Source of the DNA: Ruditapes philippinarum
Taxonomy: Eukaryota
Assembly (NCBI RefSeq): GCF_026571515.1
Contig: NW_026851983.1
Location: forward strand, 1 to 60,307
Length of the DNA: 60,307 nt
Direction of reading: 5' to 3'
Of this stretch, positions 5,517-59,460 are shown one piece after another. Below the pieces are notes generated by a model, which saw only the letters and a program-made list of their open reading frames with translations, was not told the DNA's origin and made no database searches. Position 1 is the first letter of the stretch. Every line of letters starts with the position of its first letter. The position numbers were made by a program, and so were the translations under genes.

Positions 5517-6090
5517 AATAAGAAACCTTGAAAAAACGTGAAACACGATCCATTAGAAACCTTGAAAAATGTCAAAAACGACACATTAGAAACCTTGAAA
5601 AAACCGTTAAACACGACACATTAGAAACCTTGAAAAACGTTAAACACGACATATTAGAAACATTGAAACCGTTAAGCACGACACATTAGAAACCTTGAAA
5701 AACATAAAACACGATACATTAGAAACCAACATTAAACACGACATATTAGAAACCTTGAAAAACGTTAAACACGACACATTAGAAACCTTGAAAAACGTTA
5801 AACACGACACATAAGACACTTTGAAAAACCATTAAATAATTAAATACGACACATTATAAACATTGAAAACGTTAAGCACGACACATTAGAAACCTTGAAG
5901 AACGTAAAACACCATCCATTAGAAACCTTGAAAAACGTTAAGCACGACACATTAGAAACATTGAAAACGTTAAGCACGACACATTAGAACCCTTGAAAAA
6001 CGTCTAACACGACACATTAGAAACCTTGAAAACCATTAAATACGGCCCATTAGAAACCTTGAAAAACGCAAAACACAACACATTAGAAAC
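5517..6090. repeat. minisatellite, ~31-32-bp unit
   Basis: About 18 head-to-tail copies of cattagaaaccttgaaaaacgttaaacacgaca, with no unique spacers. Confidence 0.95.
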
Positions 6091-6092
6091 TG

Positions 6093-6217
6093 TTTCAAGC
6101 TCGTTTTTATTGAGCCTTTGATGGTCTTTTCTGGTAAATGCAAAGTGTCTTTCATACCCCCTAGCACCGGCTTAAGAAGTCCTCGACATTAAGACGATGA
6201 AATGATGTTCATAGGAC
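6093..6217 (+). other. structured dispersed element, copy 2
   Basis: GCTC-gtttttatt-GAGC hairpin, ctggtaaatgcaa loop remnant, ccccctagcaccggcttaag, then a GTCCT...AGGAC hairpin. Confidence 0.75.
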
Positions 6218-17978: not shown

Positions 17979-18135
17979 TTAACCACCTTATGAAGACATT
18001 GATTACTAGATATAGCGGTCATATAAATATGTCATGATTCTATCTTAAAACAAGAGCATTAAAAGAGCCGATTAAGATGAAGAATTTCTAGAATTTAAGT
18101 CATAATTTGATTTTCGTTTTCTTTAATTATACAAA

Positions 18136-18273
18136 TGAGCCGCGTCACTACAAAACCAACATAATGGGTTTGCGACAGGCATGGATCCAGACCAGCCTTC
18201 GCATCCGCACAGTCTGATCAGGATCCATGCTGTTCGTTATCAGATTCTCTACTTGTAATAGAGTTGGTAAGCA
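18136..18273. mobile_element. palindromic MITE family M1, truncated copy
   Basis: tgagccgcgtcac.acaaaaccaac...catggatccagaccagcc, the same family as 30459 and 37463. Confidence 0.85.
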
Positions 18274-28503: not shown

Positions 28504-30458
28504 GTAAGTATTTTTAGCTTGGTTAACTGCTGTTTATTATTTGTTATAGTATTGTTACGGTAACTAAATGCAGCATTTGTATTCAGTCTGAATTATTTAA
28601 GTTTAATTTGCACCATTGAGCTTTACCCGTAAGGGAAAATTCACGGTATAAATAGGATAGGAAAGGTTTATATTTTCCTGTCAGCACATGTGGAAATCTT
28701 GTCCTATCTCCGGAAGTTACTTTTAAATTTACTTTGCTACCTCTCCCAGTCTGAATCACAATGTTTTTTTAGTCTTGATTTCAAAGCATTTTTTAATATC
28801 TGACCTAGAACAATGGAGTCGTATCCTGTAAGTACTGTCAATGACTAGCAACATATCACCACTCAGTGCAGTTTAAATCCCATAATTGCGGCCAGAGATT
28901 GCAAACTTCTTGATTTTTGTTCAGTAGCATTCTTCGGATTTTCCTCTCCTCAATTTTTCTTAAAATTCACATCCACGTCAAAGACAAAGTAATTCAGAGC
29001 ACAATGAACTTGTTCAGATGAGATATCATTAAGGAAGTTGTAGACAATTTAGCATCTTTATATCGTCCTAACATTTTTCAATTACATACATCAATAAAGA
29101 CACTCTTGAACGGCACGATTTAAACGATATTGTTTCCGTATATCAAATGTTTGATAAAAAAAAATGTAATATAACCCTCAACTTGAAGACTTAGTTTATC
29201 TGTATCACTTTAAAACTTGTTAGATGTTGAAGTCAACGGCAAGTAAATATACTCAAGATAAGAGTACTCTGTCTTTGATAACAGCGCAAAGTAACTTCCG
29301 TCTGCTGATCTCATTGGTAAGTTCGCGATTTATTTACGGACACAGGACTCAGTTCTATGAGATATCTGCTATTTTTTAAGGGTTTCCGGGAGTTAAGCAT
29401 TGTAAAAATTTATAACTGAAATTTCGTTTCTTGGGCAGATAATAAAAAGCAGTGGTTTCAAGTAGTCATTTTCGTTTAAACCAATCGCAACTTTTTGGGC
29501 CTTTCCTTATGTTGACGTTTATAATGCGGCCTTTTAGCATGTCGCAGTTGGATGTATACGTAATAACTGCGTGTCGCAAATGTTACTTTCCTGTCATAAT
29601 TAATATATTATGTAAACTGCGTGTCTTAATTTAAATACAAAATTTGTAGATCTACCATATCCAAATAAACCGGTTTTTTTCCCTTATTTTTCTTATCGAT
29701 ACGTTGTACAGTGTTTAAACATTACATGTATGTGATTTACCTTTTTAGAAAAATATCAATTCATAATTTTTCAAATGACATGCTGCACTTTTGACCTGAA
29801 TCATTTATGCATTTTATAGAAACCAGACTTGCTTATTTTACAAGCATTCAAAGCTATCTAAACAAACTAGCTTTGAAGTGCTTTTCAAGTTTACAAACCC
29901 ATTTAAATTGAAACACTTATCAAAATAATGGCTAAATATCGGTTAAACATAATGTTATTTTCATATTACTTACACATAAAAGAATACTAAAATCTAGACC
30001 TACCCATTGTAAAGTTTACAAAGTGACGATAAATCTGTCTGTATATATTTGGTCAACAATTTATCTCTTTACTCGGCATTTAATTATTTCATATTTATAT
30101 ATATGTTATTTCCTTTCCTTTATATATCAAATTTTAAAGTGCTTATTAGATTAACCACATACGTATGTTTACATGTAAAACATAAAGAAATACATACATG
30201 AACATTATAAAATAAGAAATTTGCGAGTTTTGATACTGCACGGCTTCAAACAGCAGACGTTACATACACAAATGTAAATGAATGTATCACTTCCTTAAAA
30301 AAAGAACAAAAAAACAACAATAAAATTAATTTAAAACAAATGATTAAACGAGCATACAAGAAATTTGCATGGAAGAACTACGCAAATGTGTCGTTTTGAT
30401 ATTTTTGTTAAGAAGCAAACAACAAACGACAATGGATCGTTTCAGTTAAGAGTTTATA

Positions 30459-30695
30459 TGAGCCGCGTCACGACAAAACCAACATAGTGTGTTTGCGACC
30501 AGCATGGATCCAGACCAGCCTGCTCATCCGCGCAGTCTGATCAGGATCCATGCTGTTCGCTTACCAACCCTATTACAAGTAGAGAAACTGATAGCGAACA
30601 GCATGGATCCTGATCAGACTGCGCTGATCGGCAGGCTGGTCTGGATCCATGCTGGTCGCAAATCAATTATGTTGGTTTTGTCGTGACGCGGCTCA
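30459..30695. mobile_element. palindromic MITE family M1, full length (237 bp)
   Basis: Long TIRs tgagccgcgtcacgacaaaaccaac...gttggttttgtcgtgacgcggctca. Confidence 0.92.
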
Positions 30696-31530
30696 TATGT
30701 TGTTGAATTCATTTTTATATAATTATGATTGTTGTTGTTGTAGTTGTTTCTTCTTTTTTTATACTTTTTTTAACAACGGTCATTAAATTGCTTACGTGTG
30801 AACGAGATTTTAATAATCACTCAACACGTGTGAAATCTATAATATCATTTAGATATTTAATAACTCTAGTCATAATATTTTTAGACAAATTTAACAATTT
30901 TATTATATTCTCAACGCTAGACCTATTTCATTTTCAATAATTCAATAGTGGCTCAAGAACTCATGTTTTTTATCCTTAAAAGCTGTTATTACAAAGATCT
31001 TTTTTCTGTAATGGTTAACATTTTTAATTCAATGACGGATTAACAAGTTTAAATACTATGTTTATATTTAGGATAGATCTATTACCGAATTTACATAAGT
31101 TTCAATCAAAGTTCACACCGCATAGGGATCAAGATAAGCGTCCGTCTCAATCAATTGCTCAAAAAATATAAATACAGTCGAGATATGGTAATAGGCATAT
31201 TCATGGATATCATAAAAAGGTATATATCTATATATACATCAGCAAGCTTAAAGTCTGCCTATTAAATCACAAGTTGTCATTAATCTTTATCCAGGAAAAA
31301 GTGTTGCCGATTTTTTTGTACAAGCTTTTTACTACATGATGCTTGTAGATGATTAGATAAGATAATAAAAACGATCAATCAAAGTTCTTTCATGAAGCAC
31401 TGCCAAAGCCAAGTAAAGAACAGTTTTATTAGTTATAGAAGTATCAGTACAGAAGTAATTGCAAACAAACTGTCCGAAAAGTCTTGTACTTGGTAAACCT
31501 AGCGTTTTAGGGGCTCAAATAACCATAAGT

Positions 31531-33790: not shown

Positions 33791-34386
33791 ACTCCCGCAA
33801 CCTACAGACACAAGCCCTATCGTTCCCGCCACCACTATCATCATCATCAAATGATAATTTTAACTAAAGCCTTAAATTAGATTGCACTATTTACAAAAAT
33901 ACAAATTTGACTGACACTGAAATTAAAAGATGGAAAATTGTAAGATTGTTACTTGAATGATTTACGCTGATATTCTATATTTATGTGGGAAAAAAATAAT
34001 GTATTATTATTATAATTTTGACTGTAATTACCGTTTTAAGTCATGTCGATACAAAACGGCAACCGTAAAAAAATCACTTTAAAGAAAAAAAAGTTGTATA
34101 AACTTGTATCAGATCCATACCGTGTGAAATGCACTTTGTATATCGCTTAAAGTATTTCATTGGCACATTACAAGTTACTTTGATCTTCATCCAACAATCA
34201 CATTTAATACATCAAATTGTAAGTCAGGGAATTTAAATGCAATGTCACGTAAGAACAAATTAACAAGAGCATGGACCAAGCTGAACTAAATACCAAATTT
34301 CCGTGTCATTCTGGTAGTTAGAAATTATCCATTGAATGGTTGTTAATTGCTAATAAAAAGAAAAGAAAAAAAAAGAAAACATAATT

Positions 34387-34558
34387 TGAGCCGCACCATG
34401 ACAAAACCAACACAATGCGTTTGCGACCAGCATGGATCCAGACCAGCCTGCGCATCCGCGCAGTCTGATCAGGATCCATGCTGTTCGCTTACAGACCCTA
34501 TAACAAGTAGAGAAACTAATAGTGAACAGCATGGATCCTGATCAGACTGCGTGGATGC
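34387..34558. mobile_element. MITE family M1, 3'-truncated
   Basis: Left arm plus centre of the 237-bp element. Confidence 0.85.
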
Positions 34559-35020
34559 AACACCAAATGTATGAAAGAAATATGTTGGCATATAAATTTC
34601 CTTATGAGCGAATGACGCATGCACAGAATCATGGCTTAACAGTTAAAAACCCTCTAAAGTAGTGTTCCTGAACATTTTATTCTGATTACATACATTTTTC
34701 ATCTGTGTTAAATAGAAGAGACAAGTTTCAAATCTTTCGATACTTTACCATAAGGATAACAATAAAATTTTACCATTTATAAATTTTACAGGAAAAAAAA
34801 TCATTAAATACAGCGTTTTACCCCTAAAATCTAAATGTTGCTTTCTGTAACGAATGTTCAGAAAATGTACAACAGTCCATGTACTATATTGTAACCGGGC
34901 GCCGGATACAGTACATATACATGTACAGTTATCATTAATACTACTCTGTTAACAAGATGCTGTCTATTCTATTGCTATAATATATATACCATATTTATTT
35001 GCAGGATTTCGAACTCAAGG

Positions 35021-36728: not shown

Positions 36729-37462
36729 CTGTTTTAGATTTTGGACTGAACAAAACAATTTCCAGATTCATGCTTTTGATAGAAAGATGTGTTGTGAATA
36801 GTTTTAGCTGATCACAGAATACAATTAACTCATAAGATTGAATCTGTTTTGCGTGAACGCATAAAGTTCCAGCGTTATTTGAGACAGCAAAGTAGTATTT
36901 GAGTGTACGAATTGCGACTTGTATTTACTATGATTATTTCAAAACTTTAATATCTAAATGTGTTTGATAGCAAAAACAATAATTACGTTATTGTTTGAAA
37001 AACAATATATGTAAGTTATATGTGATTATATTTGTGTATGTATAAATGCTGGTATTTTGGTATGTTTACTCTTAAATATGTTGCAATACATGATCTAACA
37101 GTGCTCATATGTCAACTTATTTTTATCTATTTATAAAGGTAAATGGCATTTACAACTTAAAGATACAAATAAATGTGCTTTAACTTAATAAAAAAATGCG
37201 ACACAAAAATACATGTAACTGATATACACCATTTATTAAATAATATTATAATTTTATAGAATAATATACTAGAAATAATTGCTGAATATATATAAAGAAA
37301 GCAAGGGGTCATGTTTGATGCAAATATGTGTCTATAGCTTTGATGAAATTTACCCTGTAATAACGCTTGGATTGTACAGCCATAACTTAATAGCAATTTG
37401 TGAAAATATGTGAAACAAGTACCATCACAAAAATAATCTTGTGTGGAAATTTAAGAACTATT

Positions 37463-37699
37463 TGAGCCGCGTCACGACAAAACCAACATAGTAGGTTTGC
37501 GACCAGCATGGATCCAGACCAGCCTGCGCATCCGCGCAGTCTGATCAGGATCCATGCTGTTCGCTTACAAACCCTATAACAAGTAGAGAAACTGATAGCG
37601 AACAGCATGGATCCTGATCAGACTGCGCGGATGCGCAGGCTGGTCTGGATCCATGCTGGTCGCAAACCTATTATGTTGGTTTTGTCGTGACGCGGCTCA
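37463..37699. mobile_element. MITE family M1, full length (237 bp)
   Basis: Near-perfect palindrome, very similar to 30459-30695. Confidence 0.92.
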
Positions 37700-38469
37700 T
37701 TTTTTCATTAGCTTTTTACTTTACTGAATACTTACAACGTATGGATTATTTTCTGCATTCATTAAAGCTGCAGAAAATCAACATTAAGGATATGTACATG
37801 TACTTAGATTTTAAGGCAAGTACAGGTAATAATTTACATGTTAATTACATTATATGAAAAATATTTGATCACATGGCTGGGTCAACAACAGTTTCGCCTA
37901 CTATTGACCTGAATCATCTTAAAACAAATATTGTGAAAGATTCATTTTTTTTAAATCTCAGTTAACTAGGGTCAACATCTTGCAGAACTCAAAACATTTT
38001 GATACCAAGGAGAGGTCCATATCAAAGTTCTTATCGAAAGACAAAATAACGAAATAACCTGTTTTAATCTTAATTAAAACTGCAAACTGAAACCATTTGA
38101 TTTTCAATGGATTTGTCAGTAATGCAAGGGGATTGCACACCTTTTTCAATAAATAGTGTCTTTACATTTTATTGCAATGTTTTGTTCTAAACTGGTAGTG
38201 TTTAAGATATCTTTAAGAAATGAGCAGTGGGGAAATATACATCAAAATTGTCCAAAACTGGAATTCACTGTAATGACCAACCTAGGCTATTAGTCGGTTT
38301 AATAAGTTCTCTCACACCGTATCAAAGACTTGACACGCGTCAGACAGAAATATTACAAAATGTTAACAAGCCTGATCGTCAACATTATAAAAACTGTAGG
38401 TTAAAGCCATATTTAGGAGCGCCCTATAAACTTTTCCGCACGTCCTTATCTCACAACTATTTGCATCAT

Positions 38470-38478
38470 TATAAAAAG
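38470..38478 (+). promoter_or_regulatory. TATA box of C1qDC gene A1 (conserved in A2, A3)
   Basis: TATAAAAAG 39 nt before aaacATG; the same spacing is seen in the paralogs. Confidence 0.55.
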
Positions 38479-38508
38479 CCGTCGGATTTTAATGAAAGCG
38501 ACTTAAAC

Positions 38509-39739
38509 ATGGAGATCAGACACGTACACTTAGTTTGTGTAGGATACATTATTTGGTTTTACACACTGCTTACTGCTGCAGCTTTCACAAATGAGGATAC
38601 CTTGAAAATAGTTCTCTCAGAATTAGAAGATTTAAAGATGAAGGTCAACACATGCGAGAAGAGAATGGTCATCAACGACCACAAGCTAATGGCGGTCACC
38701 AATGAACAGAGATTACTAGTAGCTAACATGGAAGAAAGACTTCTCGCTGCAGAGGAAAATCTTAAAACTACCGCAGAATTATATGAGAAAAAGTTAGCCA
38801 AGTCAGACAGTAAACTCCGTGCCGTTGAAAGGAAACTTACAGTGTTTGAGGAGATGTACGGTCGCTTATCAAACAAAGGAGAGCCAATTAAAGACGTTGG
38901 GGAAACTGATTTGAACGTGAATACCACCGATTTTGACGGGGAAAATAGAAAACACAGTGCTGATGAAGAGAAGTTAGCATCCCTAAATGGGTTCCATGTT
39001 TCTGAAACGGTATATGACAGCACTTTAGGGGAATCTCTGTTGACAGATACTGACAATAACCACGGAGATATAAGGGACACTAACAACATCGACAATACAC
39101 GACGCTCATATACTCAAAAATCAGAAAGGGGTAACAAAACTTAATTAGTAGATAAAGATCGTTTTGAAAACTCCTATTTAATCATAAATTAATTCAGTAG
39201 TGTTCAAAGACATCATATAATACAAATATAAACATGTATTTATATATACAGCAATGCCATGATAATGCAATAGTTTTTTTCTCATTTTAGCATCGCATAC
39301 CATATATCATAAGCGACTTGTGAATCCAGCTGTCAACCATCGTGTTGCCTTCACAGCGCACTTATCAGTCGACAAAGCTACCGAACTTGGGAAAGAGCAC
39401 ACAATTCCCTTTAATCAACTCCTGTTAAACGAAGGCCAGGCATATGACGCTATCACAAATACGTTCATATGTCCAGTGAACGGTATATACATCTTTCAAT
39501 CAGCTTTAATGAGTCCTTTACAGGAACGTATCCAAACTGAAATGGTAATAAACGGTGCATGTATTGGTAGAATGTATGCGAACGGTGCAAGTAATGGATA
39601 TGATCAGGGATTTAATTCTGCAACTGTACAATGCAATAAAGGTGATCACGTGTGGGTCAGAGTACACTATCATTATGGCACCAGCATTTATAATCTATTA
39701 TATTCTTCGTTTTCTGGACACATCCTATGGGAAACATAA
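38509..39739 (+). CDS. C1q-domain-containing protein A1 (signal peptide + coiled-coil + gC1q), 356 aa; exons 38509-39130, 39291-39739
   Basis: Hydrophobic leader, heptad region and phase-1 GT-AG intron; gC1q motifs VAFTAHL, IPFNQLLLNEGQAYD, FICPVNGIYIF, KGDHVWV, SSFSGHIL. Confidence 0.93.
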
Positions 39740-43631: not shown

Positions 43632-44366
43632 ACAAGTACCGTCTTTTGACTTTACAAAAATAGTCTTGTACGGAAATAACATACTTCGGGAAATCTTTAG
43701 AACTATTTTTATGTGCTATTACGGGGCTGAATATACGCAACATCTGGCTTTTTTTGCTTTTGTTCACACCAATTTAGATGAAAAAGGTTTGCTCAAATGA
43801 CTTGAACAGTTTTGTCTACCAGCTATTTGAATCATTTCAAAACGAATGGTGTGTGCACTTGCAGCACTCAAAACATTCTGACACCAAAGAGTAGTTCTTA
43901 TCGAAAGACAAAATTACAAAATCGTTCCCGTCTTGATCTTAATTAAATCTGCAATCTGAAACCATTTGATTTGTAAGCGATTTGCCACTCATGCTGAGGT
44001 TGTAGCACATATTTCAATACAAAAGTGTCTCGACATTCTGTCTAAACCAGTAGTGTTAAAGATATCTTTAAGACATAGACAGTGGGGAAATAAGAACATC
44101 AAAATGGTCCAAAACTGGAATTCACTGTAATGGCCGACCGAGGCTTTTAGTCGGTTCAATTAAATTCTCTCATACCGTGTCAAAGACTTGACACGCGTCA
44201 GAAAGAAATATTACAAAATGGTAACAAGTCTGATCGTCAACATGATATAAAATGTAGGTTAAAACCATATTTAGGAGCGAGCTATAAACTTTTCATCATG
44301 GCCTTATCTCACAAGTATTTGCATCATTATAAAAGGCCGACGGATTTTAATGAAAGCGACTTAAAC

Positions 44367-45587: not shown

Positions 45588-46087
45588 AAACTCTATTTCA
45601 ATTACTTTAATGTCCTTATCACTTTTTTAATTAGTGATTTGAAATGTATAATAGGCAAATACATGTATGTCTGGAATAACACATGTATATAATAAACATG
45701 CAGAGTCGCGAATTCTTTGGTGATTTTATTGACAATGACACAAAATCAACGAAACTGAGGACTATGAAGCAAAATATCTATTATATTATAATTTGGAGAC
45801 CTTTAAAGCTACATGCCTCCAGATAAGTTTAAATATTTCAATGAACGCAAACTTGAGACAAAAATTTAATAAGATTGTAGAAAAGTAAAAAGATTCAAGT
45901 AATAATTTACAAGTTATATGCTATGAATTTTCAGGATTTATAACTATATTTTTCATATTTTGACCCCTTTTTGGTAATTTACGTGTGTTGCTAGTTCCAA
46001 TGATAATGTGAAAAGTCCATGCCATGCCTACAAGCACATTCCTAACATTTGATTGATGAAGAACTCAAATTTAAATTTTGACAATGA

Positions 46088-46383
46088 AATAGAAAGAAAA
46101 GCACAGTCCCTAAGAACGCCAAAATTAAAATATAATTGAAAGTGGCTCGGTTTGATCAAGAGGCGGCAGTGGTTATTGCAAGCTACAGATATACTAGCAC
46201 CGGCTTAAGCATAATATGATGAAAATGGTGAAAAATTGTATTTAAAAACACCCGACGGTTTGTTCATACGGCAGTGATCGATATAACCTTCACTGTGGCA
46301 CGCACGTGCCATTCTATGACATGTGGCGTATGGTAACCAAGTAAAAAAAAGCATGAGTCTTAAATAAAATGAAATTTTGAAAG
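46088..46383 (+). other. structured dispersed element, copy 6 (decayed)
   Basis: ggctcggtttgat ... ggttattgcaagcta ... ctagcaccggcttaagc ... cacgtgccattc ... aaaatgaaattttgaaag. Confidence 0.75.
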
Positions 46384-48376: not shown

Positions 48377-48584
48377 TAAACTTGGTATTCTCCAATAAGC
48401 ACCATTCAACGTATTTCTCCTTTCTGATCAAGACCATGTGTCACTAATAAATTGATAATAAGCGTAATTTACAATATGATAAGAAATGTAGGTTAACACC
48501 ATATTAAGAAGCACGGTCAAGTGTCAACGAGTTCTATCTCCGAAAACAAATTGCGATATCATAAAAAGCCACAACGACATAAAC

Positions 48585-50332
48585 ATGACTATCAAAAACG
48601 TACATTTAGTTTTGTTTGGTTATATTATTTTGTTTAACACACATCTAGCTGCTGCTGATGCTGCCACAAATGGTGATACATTGACAAGAGTTCTCTCTGA
48701 ACTTGAAGAATTAAAGGCGAACGTCAGCACATGCGAAGAAAGACTGATGGTAGTGGAGGATCACAAAAATGACAACACGTTGAAAGCGTCCACAAATGAA
48801 CAGAGATTGGCTCATATGGAGGAAATGCTTCTCGCTGCAGAGAGAAAAATTAGAATAACCGAAAATATTTATGAGAGAAAGTTAGCTCAGACAGAGGGTA
48901 AACTTCGTGGAGCAGAAACCAAACTAAACGTCGTTGAAGAGCTACATGACCGCTTAGCACACATAGAGCAGTTGATCGTGAGCTTTAGTTCCAAAGATGG
49001 TGACATTGAATCGGTCAAGGAAGCAGCCAACAGTTTGAGAATACAACTGCCACAGAATCCGATGAGGGAAAATATATCTAATGCAAAGATATTTGGTATC
49101 CACGAAGAAAAACATGGGGATGAAACCGACAATAAAACCAACACTCAAAGAGATGACTTTAACAATATCGCTGAAACACGACGATCATCTAGTCGAAAAA
49201 TAGATAGAGGTAAGAAACCTCTTATATTCAAAACTGTGTTTCTATGATGAAAATACGATGGCACGATGATGAAATGGTGAATCGCAATGGTATAACATGA
49301 CGGCAAAATTCGATGGGAAAATGGTGGACGCACGATGGGATAATGCAGTATTACATCACCATTTTACGATTGTACCATCGTATTATAGCGTTTTCATCCT
49401 GATTTTGAGGAGAAAAATAACGCCAATAAACACGTTAACAAGTAAGATTTATGTTTTGAACCTTGCCAATGCAAAAGTTCATTTAAAAGGCGGTAGAGGC
49501 GCACATAATTCGTGTGTAACATTGCCTTTTTCATAACATCTTGAGGACCAATCGTTTTAATTGAATCCAAATTTAATACATCAAAAATACTTTGCATGTG
49601 TTTAGGACCAATATTGTATTTATTGGCGAATGCAATAAAAATATTGTTTACGCCAAGTTTGTATAACGCAACAAACGTCAGTCAAAATATCTACACATTG
49701 TTTATAATAAATTGATTATCCTACAACCATAATGGTAACAGGATAAGGAATTTAAGTTCCCCTCGTCTATCTTGCTTTTCTGTCAAACCCCTCGTGACAA
49801 TGTAGAAAATCAAATCAAAGATCAGATACTATATCAACAATAGAACATTACATATAAGATTTGAATTTCTTTTTTGTATATTTTTAGGGTCCAACTTTCC
49901 CTACTCGAAGCGACTTTTGGGTGTAGTCGTAAATCACAGGCCTGCTTTTTCAGCCTTTTTATCCGATCACGTATCTGGACTGGGAAAAGAGCAAACAATT
50001 CCATTTGATGACGTTTTGCTAAATGAAGGTAATGCGTATGACCCAGTTCTGCATGCATTCATATGTCCGGTCAATGGGATATACATGTTCCAATCAGCCG
50101 TTATGTGTAATCATAATCAATATATGCAGACTGAAAGGATGGCACAACATTGACAAGAATGTACTCTTCGGGAGCTACCGGTAGTGATGGGTATGATCAG
50201 GGCTTTAACTCTGCCATTGTGAGATGTAATCAAGGGGAAAGAGTATGGGTTATAGTGCATAATACATACGGGACAGCAGCATTCAGCTGGCGGTACTCTT
50301 CTTTTTCAGGCTACATTCTGTGGGAAGTGTAA
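48585..50332 (+). pseudogene. C1qDC gene B1 with frameshift in gC1q; exons 48585-49209, 49888-50332
   Basis: Exon 1 and splice sites are intact. After MQTE (~50135) about 7 nt are missing, splitting gC1q into two ORFs (49917-50153, 50150-50332). Confidence 0.8.
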
Positions 50333-52565
50333 TTTTACTGTAAAGAAATAATGTCATTAAAGTATAACAAAGCTTCTTAAAGGAAATGAGAATTTATTGC
50401 CCTTTGTATAAAAATATACATCAAATTAACATAAGTAAATATTGAAATGAACACTTCAGTGATAAGGTAGATTAATCTAAGAACACAATATGGTAAGGCA
50501 CTTGTAACTTTATTAAAACAAAAAATAAAATAAACTGTTGCCTATTTAAATCAGCAAAAATTTATTCTATTTTTGAAACACAAATCTGAAGTACCACAGG
50601 TTGAGAACACAATGGCTACAAGTTCTAAGTCGTAACATGATTAACATGTGTGTTATGAAAGGGCCCTTAGAGCACAAATGAGAAATGAAAGTACATGTAT
50701 AATTTTTGATGGGTTTTATGTAGCACCAACACAACATAAGTCATATGGCCACTTTTCTGGTGGAGGAAAGCCTCAAGCAAAGGCGGGAACCCGAGTAGAA
50801 CCACAACTGAAAGGAACACATGCAAGGGCTAACATATTTGAAATACATGTAAAATACATAAACATATAGGAACACAAGAAGGTAAAGCATGAAGACTATG
50901 ATTTTGAACACAACAGTTACAACAAGTTCTTCATTACTAAAGAAGAACACAAGTTTCTATAATTTATAATACCTTAGAGTAAAGCTTATATACAAGTGGC
51001 AATCCCCTTAAAGTAAAGAATGTAAAAGTATAAACTTCAAATCTCTCTCCAAATGATATCTAGAAGAAATATATTAAGAACTGTGTGTTTCATCTTTATC
51101 ATTTCAGTTGTATAAGGCAGTAGAAAAACAAATTTTATTATACAGCATAATATTCCCGCATTTTTTTTTACTTTATATGTGTTGCATAATTTTTAAAGAA
51201 TCCAAAGACAATCATATACAGATTAATTCTGTCTATAAACTTATCTAATAGATGACTTTTTTACAAATTATTTAACACTATTTAAATCATTGAGCAGCTT
51301 TTTTACAAGTTATCTAACACTTTGTTAAAGCATTGTGCAAAGTCCAGGGAGGAAAACTGTATCAAACTTACACTGGCAGTGCAAGGCTTTATACATAAAT
51401 CTGGACAAATTAACTATTCTGCATCAAACTATGCTATAATCAATTGGTAGAAGTCTAATAATTATTTACTATAATTTGATTAGGTAATTGGGTCTTAGAA
51501 GAATAATGCGTGAGGTACAGCTGCAAAGCTTTGTAATTAATCTCTTAATGTAGTGAAAATTTAAGTGTCAGGTGTGTTAGAATCATCAATATATCAATCT
51601 TTTTGTTGAATACAAAAATTCAATTAAGTTTAAAAATTAATTGTAAAACAAATTCTATTCTATATTTTGTATCAAAATAATTTCATGCTGCAGTAAATGC
51701 ATTGCAGTAAGAAATTCTAATATATTTTGTTCAGAGATAAAATAAGCTTTAAAACAATTTTTCAGCTGTATATTGTGTGACAATTCATATAAACGGGAAT
51801 TGTAGTCGCTTAACAAGCTTTTAAAACATTCATTAATAATTACTTATGAATACTTTTGAAACAAATATATATTTGCCTATGATTATATTTAATGTTCTGA
51901 GCCAAGACTAAGGGTTTGCCGACCTTTTTAAGGTAAGGATACATGCCAAGAAAATGTCTGTCATTTCAACAAAATTTGAATTACATTCTCTACTACAGAA
52001 TTGTTTTGAATAATAAACAGCAGTAAGTTAAAACTTAAACCTAGTAAGAAATCAATCAAATGGAATGCAAAAGGTTAGGGGTTTTCTTTTTGTTTCACAA
52101 AATATTCCTCACTAACCCGTCTTGATCTTAATTAAATTTGCAATCTGAAAGCTTTGATTTTTAAGCGATTTGTCACTAATGCTTAAGTTGTAGCAGATAT
52201 TTCAATAAAAAGTGTCTAACATTGTATTCCCATGTTTTGTTCTAAACCAGTAGTGTTTAAGATATCTTTAAGAAATAGACAGTGGGGAAATAAGTACATC
52301 AAAATTGCCCAGACAGGAAATCACTGTAATGACCGACCGAGGCTTTTAGTCGGTTCAATTAAGTTCTCTCATACCGTATCAAAGCCTTGACACGCGTCAG
52401 AAAAATAATTTACAAAATGGTAACAAGCCTGATCGTCAACATGATAAAAAATGTAGGTTAAAACCATATTTAGGAGCGCCCTATAAACTTTTCCGCACGT
52501 CCTTATCTCACAACTATTTACATCATTATAAAAAGCCGACGGATTTTAATGGAAACGACTTAAAC

Positions 52566-54504: not shown

Positions 54505-54787
54505 GAATAGAGAGAATAGCGCAGTCCCTAAAGAACGCCACAATTTAAATATAATTGAAAGTAGTGCTGGCTCGGTTTGATTAATAGGCGGTAGTGGTTA
54601 TTGCAAGCTACAAATATACTAGCACCGGCTTAGGCATATGATGAAAATGGTGAAAATTTGTATTTAAAACATCCGGCGTTGATCGATAGAACTTTCATTG
54701 TGGCACGCACGTATCATTCTATGACATTTGGCGTTTGGTTACCAAGTAAAAGAATGCATGAGTCTTAAATAAAATGAAATTTTGAAA
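54505..54787 (+). other. structured dispersed element, copy 7 (segmental duplicate of copy 6)
   Basis: tgctggctcggtttgatt ... ttgcaagcta ... ctagcaccggcttaggc. Confidence 0.75.
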
Positions 54788-56617: not shown

Positions 56618-56818
56618 TTCAACTTGGTGTTCCCCCATAAACACCTTTCAACGTAGTTTTCCTTTCTGATCAAGACCATGTGTCACTAACAAATTGATAA
56701 TTAGCGTAATTTACAATATGATAAAAACTGTAGGTTAAAACTATATTAAGAAGCACTGTCAACGAGTTCTTACTCCGATAAAAATGCGATATCATAAATA
56801 GCCACTAGTCGGAATGAA

Positions 56819-57126
56819 TAGAGAAAATAAGAATCCCTAAAGAATGTCCAACACAGCACAATTGATAATGTTGCAGGCTCGGTTTGATTGAGCCTGCTCA
56901 TGGACGGTACTGTCAAGTGAAACTACCGTCCACGCCCCCTCGCACCGGCTTAAGCAGAATTCAACATTTAATATGAACTGGTACAATTTTGAATTTAAAA
57001 ACATCCGCAGATGTGTTCATATGGCGGTCATCCTGGAACCTTTAATGTGACACGTAAGTGCCATTCCATGAAAAGCGGCATATGGTCCCCAAGTTAAAAA
57101 AATGCGTGTGCCCTAATCGAGAAAAC
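56819..57126 (+). other. structured dispersed element, copy 8 (best preserved, ~308 bp), located between TATA-like box and ATG of gene B2
   Basis: GCAGGCTC-ggtttgatt-GAGCCTGC; TGGACGGTA-ctgtcaagtgaaac-TACCGTCCA; gccccctcgcaccggcttaagc; flanked by AATGAA on both sides. Confidence 0.85.
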
Positions 57127-57144
57127 AATGAAAACGACCTAAGC

Positions 57145-59460
57145 ATGACTACCAAAAACGTGCACTTAGTTTTATTTGGTTATATTATTTTGTTTAACAC
57201 ACAGCTAGCTGCTGCTGCTGTCACAAATGGAGATATATTGACAAAAGTTCTCTCTGAACTTGAAGAATTTAAGGCGAACCTCAGCACATGCGAAGAAAGA
57301 CTGATGATAGTGGAGGTTTACAAAAATGACAACACGTTGAGTGTCCACAAATGAACAGAGATTGGCTCACATGAAGGTAAGACTTCTCGCTGCAGAGAGA
57401 AAACTTAGAATAACCGAAAATATTTATGAGAAAAAGTTAGCTCAGACAGAGAGTAAACTTCGTGGAACAGAAACCAATCGTCATTGAAGAGCTACATGAC
57501 CGCTTAGCACACATAGAGAAGTTGATTGTAGGCTTTAGTTCCAAAGATGGTTACATTGAATCGGTCAAGGAAGCAGCTAATAGTTTGAGAATATAACTGC
57601 CGCATAATTCGATCAGGGAGAAGATATCTAATGCAAAGATATTTGGTATCCACGAAGAAAAACATGGGGATGAAACCGACAATAAAACCAACAATCAAAG
57701 AGATGACTTTAACAATATCGCTGAAACACGACGATCATCTAGTCGAAAAATAGATAGAGGTACGAAACCTCTTATATTCAAAACTGTGTTTCTATGATGA
57801 AAATACGATGGCACGATGATGAAATGGTGAATCGCAATGGTATAACATGACGGCAAAATTCGATGGGAAAATGGTGGAAGCACGATGGGATAATGCAGTA
57901 TTACATCACCATTTTACGATTGTACCATCGTATTTTCATTATCGTATTATAGCGTTTTCATCCCGATTTTGAGGAGAAAAATAACGCCAATAAACACGTT
58001 AACAAGTAAGATTTATGTTTTGAACCTTGCCAATGCAAAAGTTCATTTAAAAGGCGGTAGAGGCGCACATAATTCGTGTGTAACATTGCCATTTTCATAA
58101 CATCTTGAGGACCAATCGTTTGAATTGAATCCAAATTTAATACATCAAAAATACTTTGCATGTGTTTAGGACCAATATTGTATTTATTGGCGAATGCAAT
58201 AAAAATATTGTTTACGCCAAGTTTGTATAACGCAACAAACGTCAGTCAAAATATCTACACATTGTTTATAATAAATTGATTATCCTACAACCATAATGGT
58301 AACAGGATAAGGAATTTAAGTTCCCCTCGTCTATCTTGCTTTTCTGTCAAACCCCTCGTGACAATGTAGAAAATCAAATCAAAGATCAGATACTATATCA
58401 ACAATAGAACATTACATATAAGATTTGAATTTCTTTTTTGTATATTTTTAGGGTCCAACTTTCCCTACTCGAAGCGACTTTTTCGAAGAAAAACATGGGG
58501 ATGAAACCGACAATAAAACCAACACTCAAAGAGATGACTTTAACAATATCGCTGAAACACGACGATCATCTAGTCGAAAAATAGAGAGAGGTAAGAAACC
58601 ACTTATACTCAAAATTGAGTTTCTATGATGAAAATACGATGACACGATGGAGAAATGGTGAATCGCAATGGTATAACATGACGGCAAAATTCGATGGGAT
58701 AATGGTGGACGCACGATGGGATAATTTCCAAGATGCAGTATTACATCACCATTTTACGATTGTACCATCGTATTTTCATTATCGTATTATAGCGTTTTCA
58801 TCCCGATTTTGAGGAGAAAAATAACGCCAATGAACACGTTAACAAGTAAGATTTATGTTTTGAACCTTGTCAATGCTAAAGTTCATTTAAAGGACGGAAG
58901 AGGCGCACATAATTCTTGCTTAACATTGCCTTTTTTCATTACATCTTGAGAACCAATCGTTTTAATTGAATCCAATTCAATACATCAAAAATACTTTGCA
59001 TGCGTTTAGGACCAATATTGTATTTATTGGCGAATGCAATAAAATTTTGTTTACGCCAAGTTTGTATAACGCAACAAACGTCAGTCAAAATATCTACACA
59101 TTGTTTATAATAAATTGTTTATCCTACAACCATAATGGTAACAGGATAAGCAATTTAAGTTCCCCTCGTCTATCTTGCTTTTCTGTCAAACCCCTCGTGA
59201 CAATGTAGAAAATCTAATCAAAGATCAGATACTATATCAACAATAGAACATATAAATATAAGATTTGAATTTCTTTTTTGTATATTTTTAGGGTCCAACT
59301 TTCCCTACTGGAAGCGACTTTTGGGTGTAGTCGTAAATCACAGGCCTGCTTTTTCAGCCTTTTTATCCGATCACGTTTATCTGGACTTGGAAAAGAGCAA
59401 ACAAGCTGGCGGGTACTCTCTTTTTTCAGGCTTTTCAGTTTCTGGTTGGGGAAAAAAAAA
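57145..59460 (+). pseudogene. C1qDC gene B2, heavily disrupted
   Basis: Paralog of B1 with a -2 frameshift (~57340), a -5 deletion (~57478), CAA>TAA (~57594), an internal ~830-bp tandem duplication and loss of most of gC1q at 59404/59405. Confidence 0.85.
57797..57939. mobile_element. acgatgg-rich foldback MITE in type-B intron (also at ~49247 and ~58628)
   Basis: atgaaaatacgatggcacgat...aaatggtga / tcaccatttt...attgtaccatcgtattttcat. Confidence 0.7.

What the first reader, a model, noticed from the sequence alone, without database searches (positions are those of the whole stretch)
56801..57147. Filled/empty site evidence that the structured element is mobile; it sits in a C1q gene leader
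Seen: gene A1 reads tataaaaagcc-gtcgga-tttt-aatgaaagcgacttaaacATG, and A2/A3 are nearly the same. B2 reads cataaatagccacta-gtcgg-AATGAA-[308 bp element]-AATGAA-aacgacctaagcATG. B1 lacks the element and some flank (gccac|aacgac). AATGAA may be a 6-bp target duplication, or microhomology, since other copies also contain aatgaa near their ends. Inference: the insertion separated the TATA-like box from the ATG and may have contributed to B2 decay; B1 may record a later deletion or excision.
Basis: partly seen in the sequence, partly recalled or inferred. Interest (0 to 1): 0.7.

Follow-up and report, generated by a model that had tools for sequence, protein, structure and literature searches.

The report
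Truncated Naiad hitchhiker in C1q leader
A broken-off piece of a very common non-coding repeat sits just before the start codon of a damaged clam immune gene; an empty sister gene shows it was inserted with six bases duplicated, and its ends indicate it was likely copied there from RNA by a Naiad (Penelope-like) retrotransposon enzyme.

Summary
The insertion is real. A B-type paralog on contig C4848 carries the empty leader with one AATGAA; B2 has two, around 308 foreign bases. These are not a whole element but the first half of a 630-base non-coding unit with one fixed end, one ragged end and head-to-tail arrays, a long relative of the published biv-TRIM. It shares 89 of 110 bases across its junction with a 4.3-kb Naiad retrotransposon of the same genome and is read on the minus strand. 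Four of the six right-hand repeat bases also belong to the element, so AATGAA is likely a staggered-cut duplication joined by microhomology. Six of 11 resolved filled/empty pairs show the same 5-8 base pattern, 3 show small deletions, and two ragged ends carry telomeric filler. B1's 13-base deletion is most simply unrelated to the element. An effect on B2 decay cannot be shown: element-free neighbours are broken too. The scan had already linked this family to Naiad and biv-TRIM on other DNA; the junction anatomy is what this locus adds.

The parts
56819..57126 (-). Truncated copy of the 630-base family I unit (unit bases 1-307 from the fixed end); RNA sense is the minus strand, so it is a 5'-truncated copy with its fixed 3' end at 56819
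   Evidence: (14 substitutions, 2 indels over 312 against the family consensus)
56813..56818 (+). Left AATGAA: target sequence; its last AA is the inferred primer that pairs with the U run of the template
57127..57132 (+). Right AATGAA: duplicated target; 57127-57130 (AATG) is also element sequence (microhomology), 57131-57132 is host only
56873..56897 (-). Hairpin 1 of conserved module B, 9-base loop; stem covaries between families I and II; loop is a repeated insertion site in other copies
56901..56932 (-). Hairpin 2 of module B
56935..56950 (-). Most conserved motif of module B; this copy has one substitution in it
56793..56801 (+). TATA-like CATAAATAG of B2 (CATAAAAAG in other B genes, TATAAAAAG in A1 and A3); promoter role untested
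57145..57760 (+). B2 exon 1 (signal-peptide-like start, coiled-coil-like stretch) with a 2-base deletion at 57338, a 5-base deletion near 57475 and a stop at 57594-57596
   Evidence: (first deletion lies inside a 241-base contig of run X1 with no difference)
48568..48587 (+). B1 leader lacking 13 bases (TAGTCGGAATGAA); same deletion in C4848:28961
38470..38511 (+).

Best explanation
The 308 bases are a truncated copy of a 630-base non-coding repeat inserted into the leader of C1q gene B2, likely by target-primed reverse transcription with the enzyme of a Naiad (Penelope-like) retrotransposon. Shown: empty paralog, one fixed and one ragged end, tandem arrays, shared junction with a Naiad of the same genome. 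Inferred steps: the endonuclease makes a staggered cut six bases apart around AATGAA; the free plus-strand end ...AA pairs with the U run just before the unit junction of a tandem or circular minus-strand RNA and primes copying; copying stops after about 310 bases; the cDNA end AATG anneals to the other overhang, and fill-in leaves AATGAA on both sides. The insert adds 314 bases and ten extra ATGs between the TATA-like box and the start codon; whether that mattered is unknown.
For: Empty site with one AATGAA. Fixed end in nearly all, ragged end in all of 75 distinct loci; 0 of 80 family I copies stop at the unit junction although it is passed 23 times. 89 of 110 bases identical to the junction block of a Naiad family in G000; 11 of 29 Naiad loci show that block in the 900 bases upstream of the query, one more hit being a family II insert; Naiad units are 4263-4292 bases, N-terminal GIY-YIG, KR block, DKA, in-frame TGA codons, 3' end fixed before 2-6 T in 15 listed ends. 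Published Naiad_Scon starts with the same block (46 of 55 by eye against the subfamily consensus) and ends like family I. Minus strand folds better with G-U pairs (module A 9 vs 1). Junction repeats of 6 or more: 13 of 141 against 4.1 expected. Six of 11 resolved pairs have 5-8 base repeats partly shared with the truncated end. The base before the A run follows each family's own wrap-around sequence (T 27, C 8 in family I; T 6, C 16 in family II; p=3e-4).
Against: Most copies show no clear duplication; the first test on 65 copies matched the null, and at least three of the 13 long repeats are doubtful (internal deletion, nesting). Three of 11 resolved pairs have deletions. The Naiad lacks module B. 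No RNA of unit length, strand bias or circle was seen. The 11 pairs were picked because the host resumes nearby; most of the 24 nested starts did not resolve. Pfam gave no family for the Naiad protein; the assignment rests on motifs and on comparison by eye with Naiad_Mmer.
Confidence: 0.8

Rival explanations
1. A longer copy inserted with a duplicated target and was later shortened by a microhomology-mediated deletion between its internal AATG and the right AATGAA.
For: 4-base microhomology at the right junction; internal deletions occur in other copies.
Against: Copies 98-100% identical to consensus are just as ragged; Naiad copies are truncated on the same side. It still needs a duplicated target.
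Confidence: 0.11
2. A rolling-circle DNA element (Helitron/Helentron or Replitron type): fixed 5' end, run-off 3' end, tandem copies from a DNA circle.
For: Tandems, hairpins, no fixed-length duplication; a 9-base hairpin loop is hit by 5 of 24 nested starts. Replitrons give variable duplications (PMC10288648, passages).
Against: No stop at the unit end; fixed end varies in register and pairs with the target; none of 10 long Helitrons carries the modules as its own end, the one hit being a separate family II insert; direct sequence link to Naiad.
Confidence: 0.04
3. An LTR-type miniature retrotransposon, as biv-TRIM was published: TDR-internal-TDR with solo and tandem forms made by recombination.
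For: Family II fits biv-TRIM in size (283 vs 202-218 plus 77-80), in the conserved inner 14-mer (one mismatch) and in the GGGGAGA tract of one subfamily.
Against: One end is ragged over the whole unit; no fixed-length duplication; the paper found no primer binding site and no LTR partner.
Confidence: 0.03
4. The element was ancestral in B leaders and was deleted elsewhere, or the junction is an assembly chimera.
For: No read or contig shown bridged the junction (tables cut); the contig end beyond about 59400 is of poor quality.
Against: All 7 A genes and 3 other B genes lack it; the copy is only about 5% from a young consensus while A and B differ far more; the empty site is restored exactly by removing it and one AATGAA.
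Confidence: 0.02

Closest known systems
Naiad clade of Penelope-like elements, clam selenoprotein type (Naiad_Scon, Naiad_Mmer; PMC8557442: section 6, passages, supplement part 23 and search hits)
   Same: 5' truncation, partial tandems, no hammerhead, shared 5' block and 3' end; a close Naiad family is in this genome
   Different: No coding sequence; 630 bases; carries module B that the local Naiad lacks; targets A-rich sites rather than (TA)n; duplications can be read, which the paper says was often impossible for Naiads
biv-TRIM (PMC6934838: parts 1-3 of 5 of the main text; supplement search found no sequence)
   Same: Family II matches its unit size, inner 14-mer and tandem arrays; family I shares both conserved modules with family II
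   Different: Family I has about 350 extra bases; end structure and partner argue against the published LTR-type classification; identity to biv-TRIM rests on motifs, not on a full alignment
Non-autonomous Chlamys PLEs such as MRC1 and Chlamys-N4 (PMC8557442, PMC9977147; passages)
   Same: Non-coding, head-to-tail, 5'-truncated passengers of an N-terminal-EN PLE; MRC1 was also first filed as an LTR element
   Different: Green algae; microsatellite targets
Non-LTR retrozymes (PMC7229834 passages; bioRxiv 10.64898/2026.07.22.740005 parts 1-2 of 5)
   Same: Short tandem units thought to be moved by PLEs through circular RNA
   Different: No type I hammerhead core on either strand; no Rfam ribozyme match

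Membership tests
Non-autonomous Naiad/PLE passenger | Termini shared with an autonomous PLE | tested here: met
   89 of 110 bases across the junction with local Naiad; Naiad_Scon ends
Non-autonomous Naiad/PLE passenger | Fixed 3' end, variable 5' truncation, partial tandems | tested here: met
Non-autonomous Naiad/PLE passenger | Inverted truncated copy at the 5' end | tested here: inconclusive
   Inverted pieces near ends exist but several are older host copies
Non-autonomous Naiad/PLE passenger | Mobilisation by Naiad protein through RNA | not testable with these tools
   Only indirect: strand-biased G-U pairing, priming pattern
Non-LTR retrozyme | Type I hammerhead in each unit | tested here: not met
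   No CUGANGA core; Rfam negative; hammerhead cores were seen in other PLE families of the genome
Non-LTR retrozyme | Abundant circular RNA | tested here: inconclusive
   No strand bias or piled ends; two of the runs behave like DNA
TRIM (LTR type) | Two precise ends with constant short duplication | tested here: not met
   Ragged end, variable duplication or deletion
TRIM (LTR type) | Primer binding site | not tested
   PMC6934838 itself found none
Helitron/Helentron | Defined terminator end and termini shared with a Rep-helicase element | tested here: not met
   0 of 80 family I copies stop at the unit end; 0 of 10 long Helitrons own the modules
C1q-domain gene (host) | C1q domain PF00386 | tested here: met
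   A1, A2, A3, B1 exon 2; B2 exon 2 starts like B1 but runs into poor sequence

The most novel reading that the evidence does not exclude
Naiad reverse transcriptase primes inside a circular or multimeric RNA, at a U run set off by a downstream hairpin in the manner of a telomerase template boundary, after a 5-8 base staggered cut; the far target end stays free long enough to gain telomeric repeats, and the passengers' own hairpin loop is a preferred cut site. biv-TRIM and its 630-base relative would be the minimal substrates that show this.
Probability: 0.35. Interest if true: 0.7.

Novelty: new variant of a known kind. Interest (0 to 1): 0.4.

Why it matters
The single insertion is ordinary: one of thousands, in a gene array where broken copies are common. 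Its use is as a readable integration scar. The Naiad paper could often not see target duplications because Naiads sit in microsatellites; short passengers in unique or known sequence give filled/empty pairs, a priming rule and two telomeric fillers that can be tested with a 283- or 630-base RNA. It also argues that a published bivalve 'TRIM' is misclassified.

Tried and rejected
Rfam: only weak or unrelated hits on the element and its tandems. First duplication test on 65 copies was null; the larger test gave a modest excess. Helitron partner: module A 170 bases behind one Helitron stop looked promising but is an internally deleted family II insert with its own fixed end, and that Helitron had no close second copy. 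Hammerhead-type PLEs: module hits in 30 + 20 + 20 GIY-YIG loci were scattered inserts. Thirty RVT_1 loci: two scattered hits. No exact pattern match in viral or metagenome contigs. One search covered a flank by mistake and was ignored. Reads: no listed piece bridged the B2 junction; runs X5 and X8 showed other B alleles or paralogs only; small-share runs are not used as evidence. X21 and X22 are labelled RNA but have GATC junctions, so they say nothing on expression. Dating decay by N:S failed: B2 12:5, B1 10:3, others 9:2 and 5:4. Motif search of papers found one unrelated hit; 'Naiad' with 'non-autonomous' or 'bivalve' and 'biv-TRIM' returned no paper on such passengers; subscription papers, Repbase and Dfam were not searchable.

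Full report
Observation. The five genes are C1q-domain genes with a first exon coding a signal-peptide-like start and a second exon with PF00386. B2 has AATGAA at 56813-56818 and 57127-57132. A search of the genome with the B2 upstream region found two more B genes on contig C4848, an array 85-92% identical to this one. C4848:14227 has the B2-type leader with one AATGAA and no insert, and an open exon 1; C4848:28961 has the B1 deletion. Removing the insert and one AATGAA from B2 restores the empty site, so the event is an insertion.

What was inserted. The 308 bases had 4834 first-look candidates in the genome, a lower bound. The other copies start at the same left end but run on past B2's right end and stop at scattered places; many return to the start after 630 bases. 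Of 80 family I copies none ends within -10 to +5 of the unit junction, which is passed 23 times; 5 of 61 family II copies do, with 50 passages. B2's copy is the first 311 bases and differs from the consensus at 14 sites and 2 indels. A sister family of 283 bases shares two conserved blocks, module B after the junction and module A before it. Family II fits biv-TRIM in size, inner 14-mer and purine tract (PMC6934838, parts 1-3 read); I took this lead from earlier scan notes. Both modules fold better on the minus strand, with G-U pairs and covarying stems, judged on three subfamily consensuses each. Rfam finds nothing convincing and there is no hammerhead core.

Partner. Helitrons, hammerhead-type PLEs and RVT_1 elements that I sampled do not own the modules. 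Earlier notes pointed to Naiad. A Naiad fragment in locus L194 led to a family of 96-97% identical copies. Its unit is 4263-4292 bases, has an N-terminal GIY-YIG region, a KR block, DKA, RYLDD and in-frame TGA codons, ends at a fixed point before 2-6 T, is truncated at the 5' side and forms partial tandems. Across the junction it matches family I at 89 of 110 and family II at 88 of 122 columns. The published Naiad_Scon starts with the same block and ends like family I (by eye). Naiad sense is the window's minus strand, so the fixed end at 56819 is the 3' end and B2's copy is 5'-truncated. Module B is not in this Naiad and its function is unexplained.

The junction. On the left the host ends in AA, which matches the template's U run. 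In 141 copies the bases before the fixed end follow the family's own wrap-around sequence for up to six bases, and the base before the A run differs between families as their templates do (p=3e-4; the last two A were partly set by my anchoring). This implies a template that continues past the junction, tandem or circular. On the right, AATG is both target and element. With a blunt insertion that match would be chance; with a six-base stagger it is explained by annealing. Family-wide, repeats of 6 or more bases are in modest excess (13 of 141 against 4.1; null in the first 65; some of the 13 are doubtful). Where the target is known, 6 of 11 parsed pairs have 5-8 base repeats, 2 have 3 or fewer, and 3 have deletions, one overcalled by the script because the host is diverged; a twelfth case was not parsed. 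Two ragged ends, L209 and L211, hold CCCTAACCCTAA as filler, the only two such strings in 729 kb of loci. Five of 24 nested starts fall in the loop of hairpin 1, four at one position; some of the 24 may be template restarts. Craig et al. state that duplications were often not discernible for Naiads (PMC8557442, passage); microhomology joining without duplication is reported for a rotifer Penelope (PMC3846280, passages).

The gene. The insert adds 314 bases and raises the ATG count between 56813 and the start codon from 2 to 12, of which the empty leader has one. From textbook spacing the insertion point lies about where a start site would follow the TATA-like box (inference). No RNA read covered B exon 1 in the 6% of run X23 that was read, so promoter function is untested. 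B2 has two frameshifts and a stop; the first lies inside an identical contig of run X1, which may be the assembled animal. A3, B1 exon 2 and C4848:18482 are frame-broken without an insert (some may be assembly errors). The element's divergence (about 4.5%) is like B2's private divergence (19 sites in exon 1, 14 upstream), so the insertion is about as old as the B2 branch, but order and cause cannot be told. B1's deletion is shared with C4848:28961, and the two derived bases beside the ATG join B2 to the empty gene; exon 1 instead favours B1+B2 (10 sites against 3), so the array is mosaic and excision is unlikely rather than excluded.

Verdict. A real but ordinary insertion of a truncated non-autonomous Naiad passenger, a variant of a known kind already noted by this scan on other contigs. 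Tandem expansion of bivalve C1q genes is known (PMC6835236, search listing only). The new content is the junction anatomy. bioRxiv supplements, Repbase and Dfam could not be seen and may hold this family.

Noticed in passing
L209:1900 and L211:1313: Two telomeric repeat units as filler at the truncated end of two independent insertions; the only two such strings in 729 kb examined.
   Followed up: partly
L105, L140, L149, L209, L211: Nested insertions cluster in the 9-base loop of hairpin 1, four after the same seventh base.
   Followed up: partly
runs X21, X22: Labelled RNA-Seq but with GATC ligation junctions like Hi-C; 1.3% of their reads lay on the two families.
   Followed up: partly
window 5524-6204: An old family member whose 33-base subterminal segment is amplified into an array of about 15 or more copies.
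   Followed up: no
window 38492-38503, 44350-44361, 52549-52560; C4848 leaders: A three-codon upstream frame (ATG, two codons, TAA two bases before the main ATG is reached after a fourth-codon stop) is kept in most A leaders and the empty B leader, lost in B1.
   Followed up: no
window 58483-59404: Duplicated piece of B2 exon 1 and intron; sequence beyond about 59400 looks like unpolished contig end.
   Followed up: no
window 46083-46374 and 54505-54779: Old diverged family member behind the A genes, duplicated with the array and also present on C4848.
   Followed up: partly
window 18114-18272, 30437-30730, 34352-34629, 37441-37717: Another repeat with 103-106 base inverted arms 31 bases apart.
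   Followed up: no
L156-L185, L326-L345: Several young C-terminal GIY-YIG Penelope-like families with hammerhead cores near the 3' end.
   Followed up: partly
L246-L265: Ten Helitrons with open frames of about 2000-2600 codons, several flanked by arrays of a roughly 165-base repeat.
   Followed up: no
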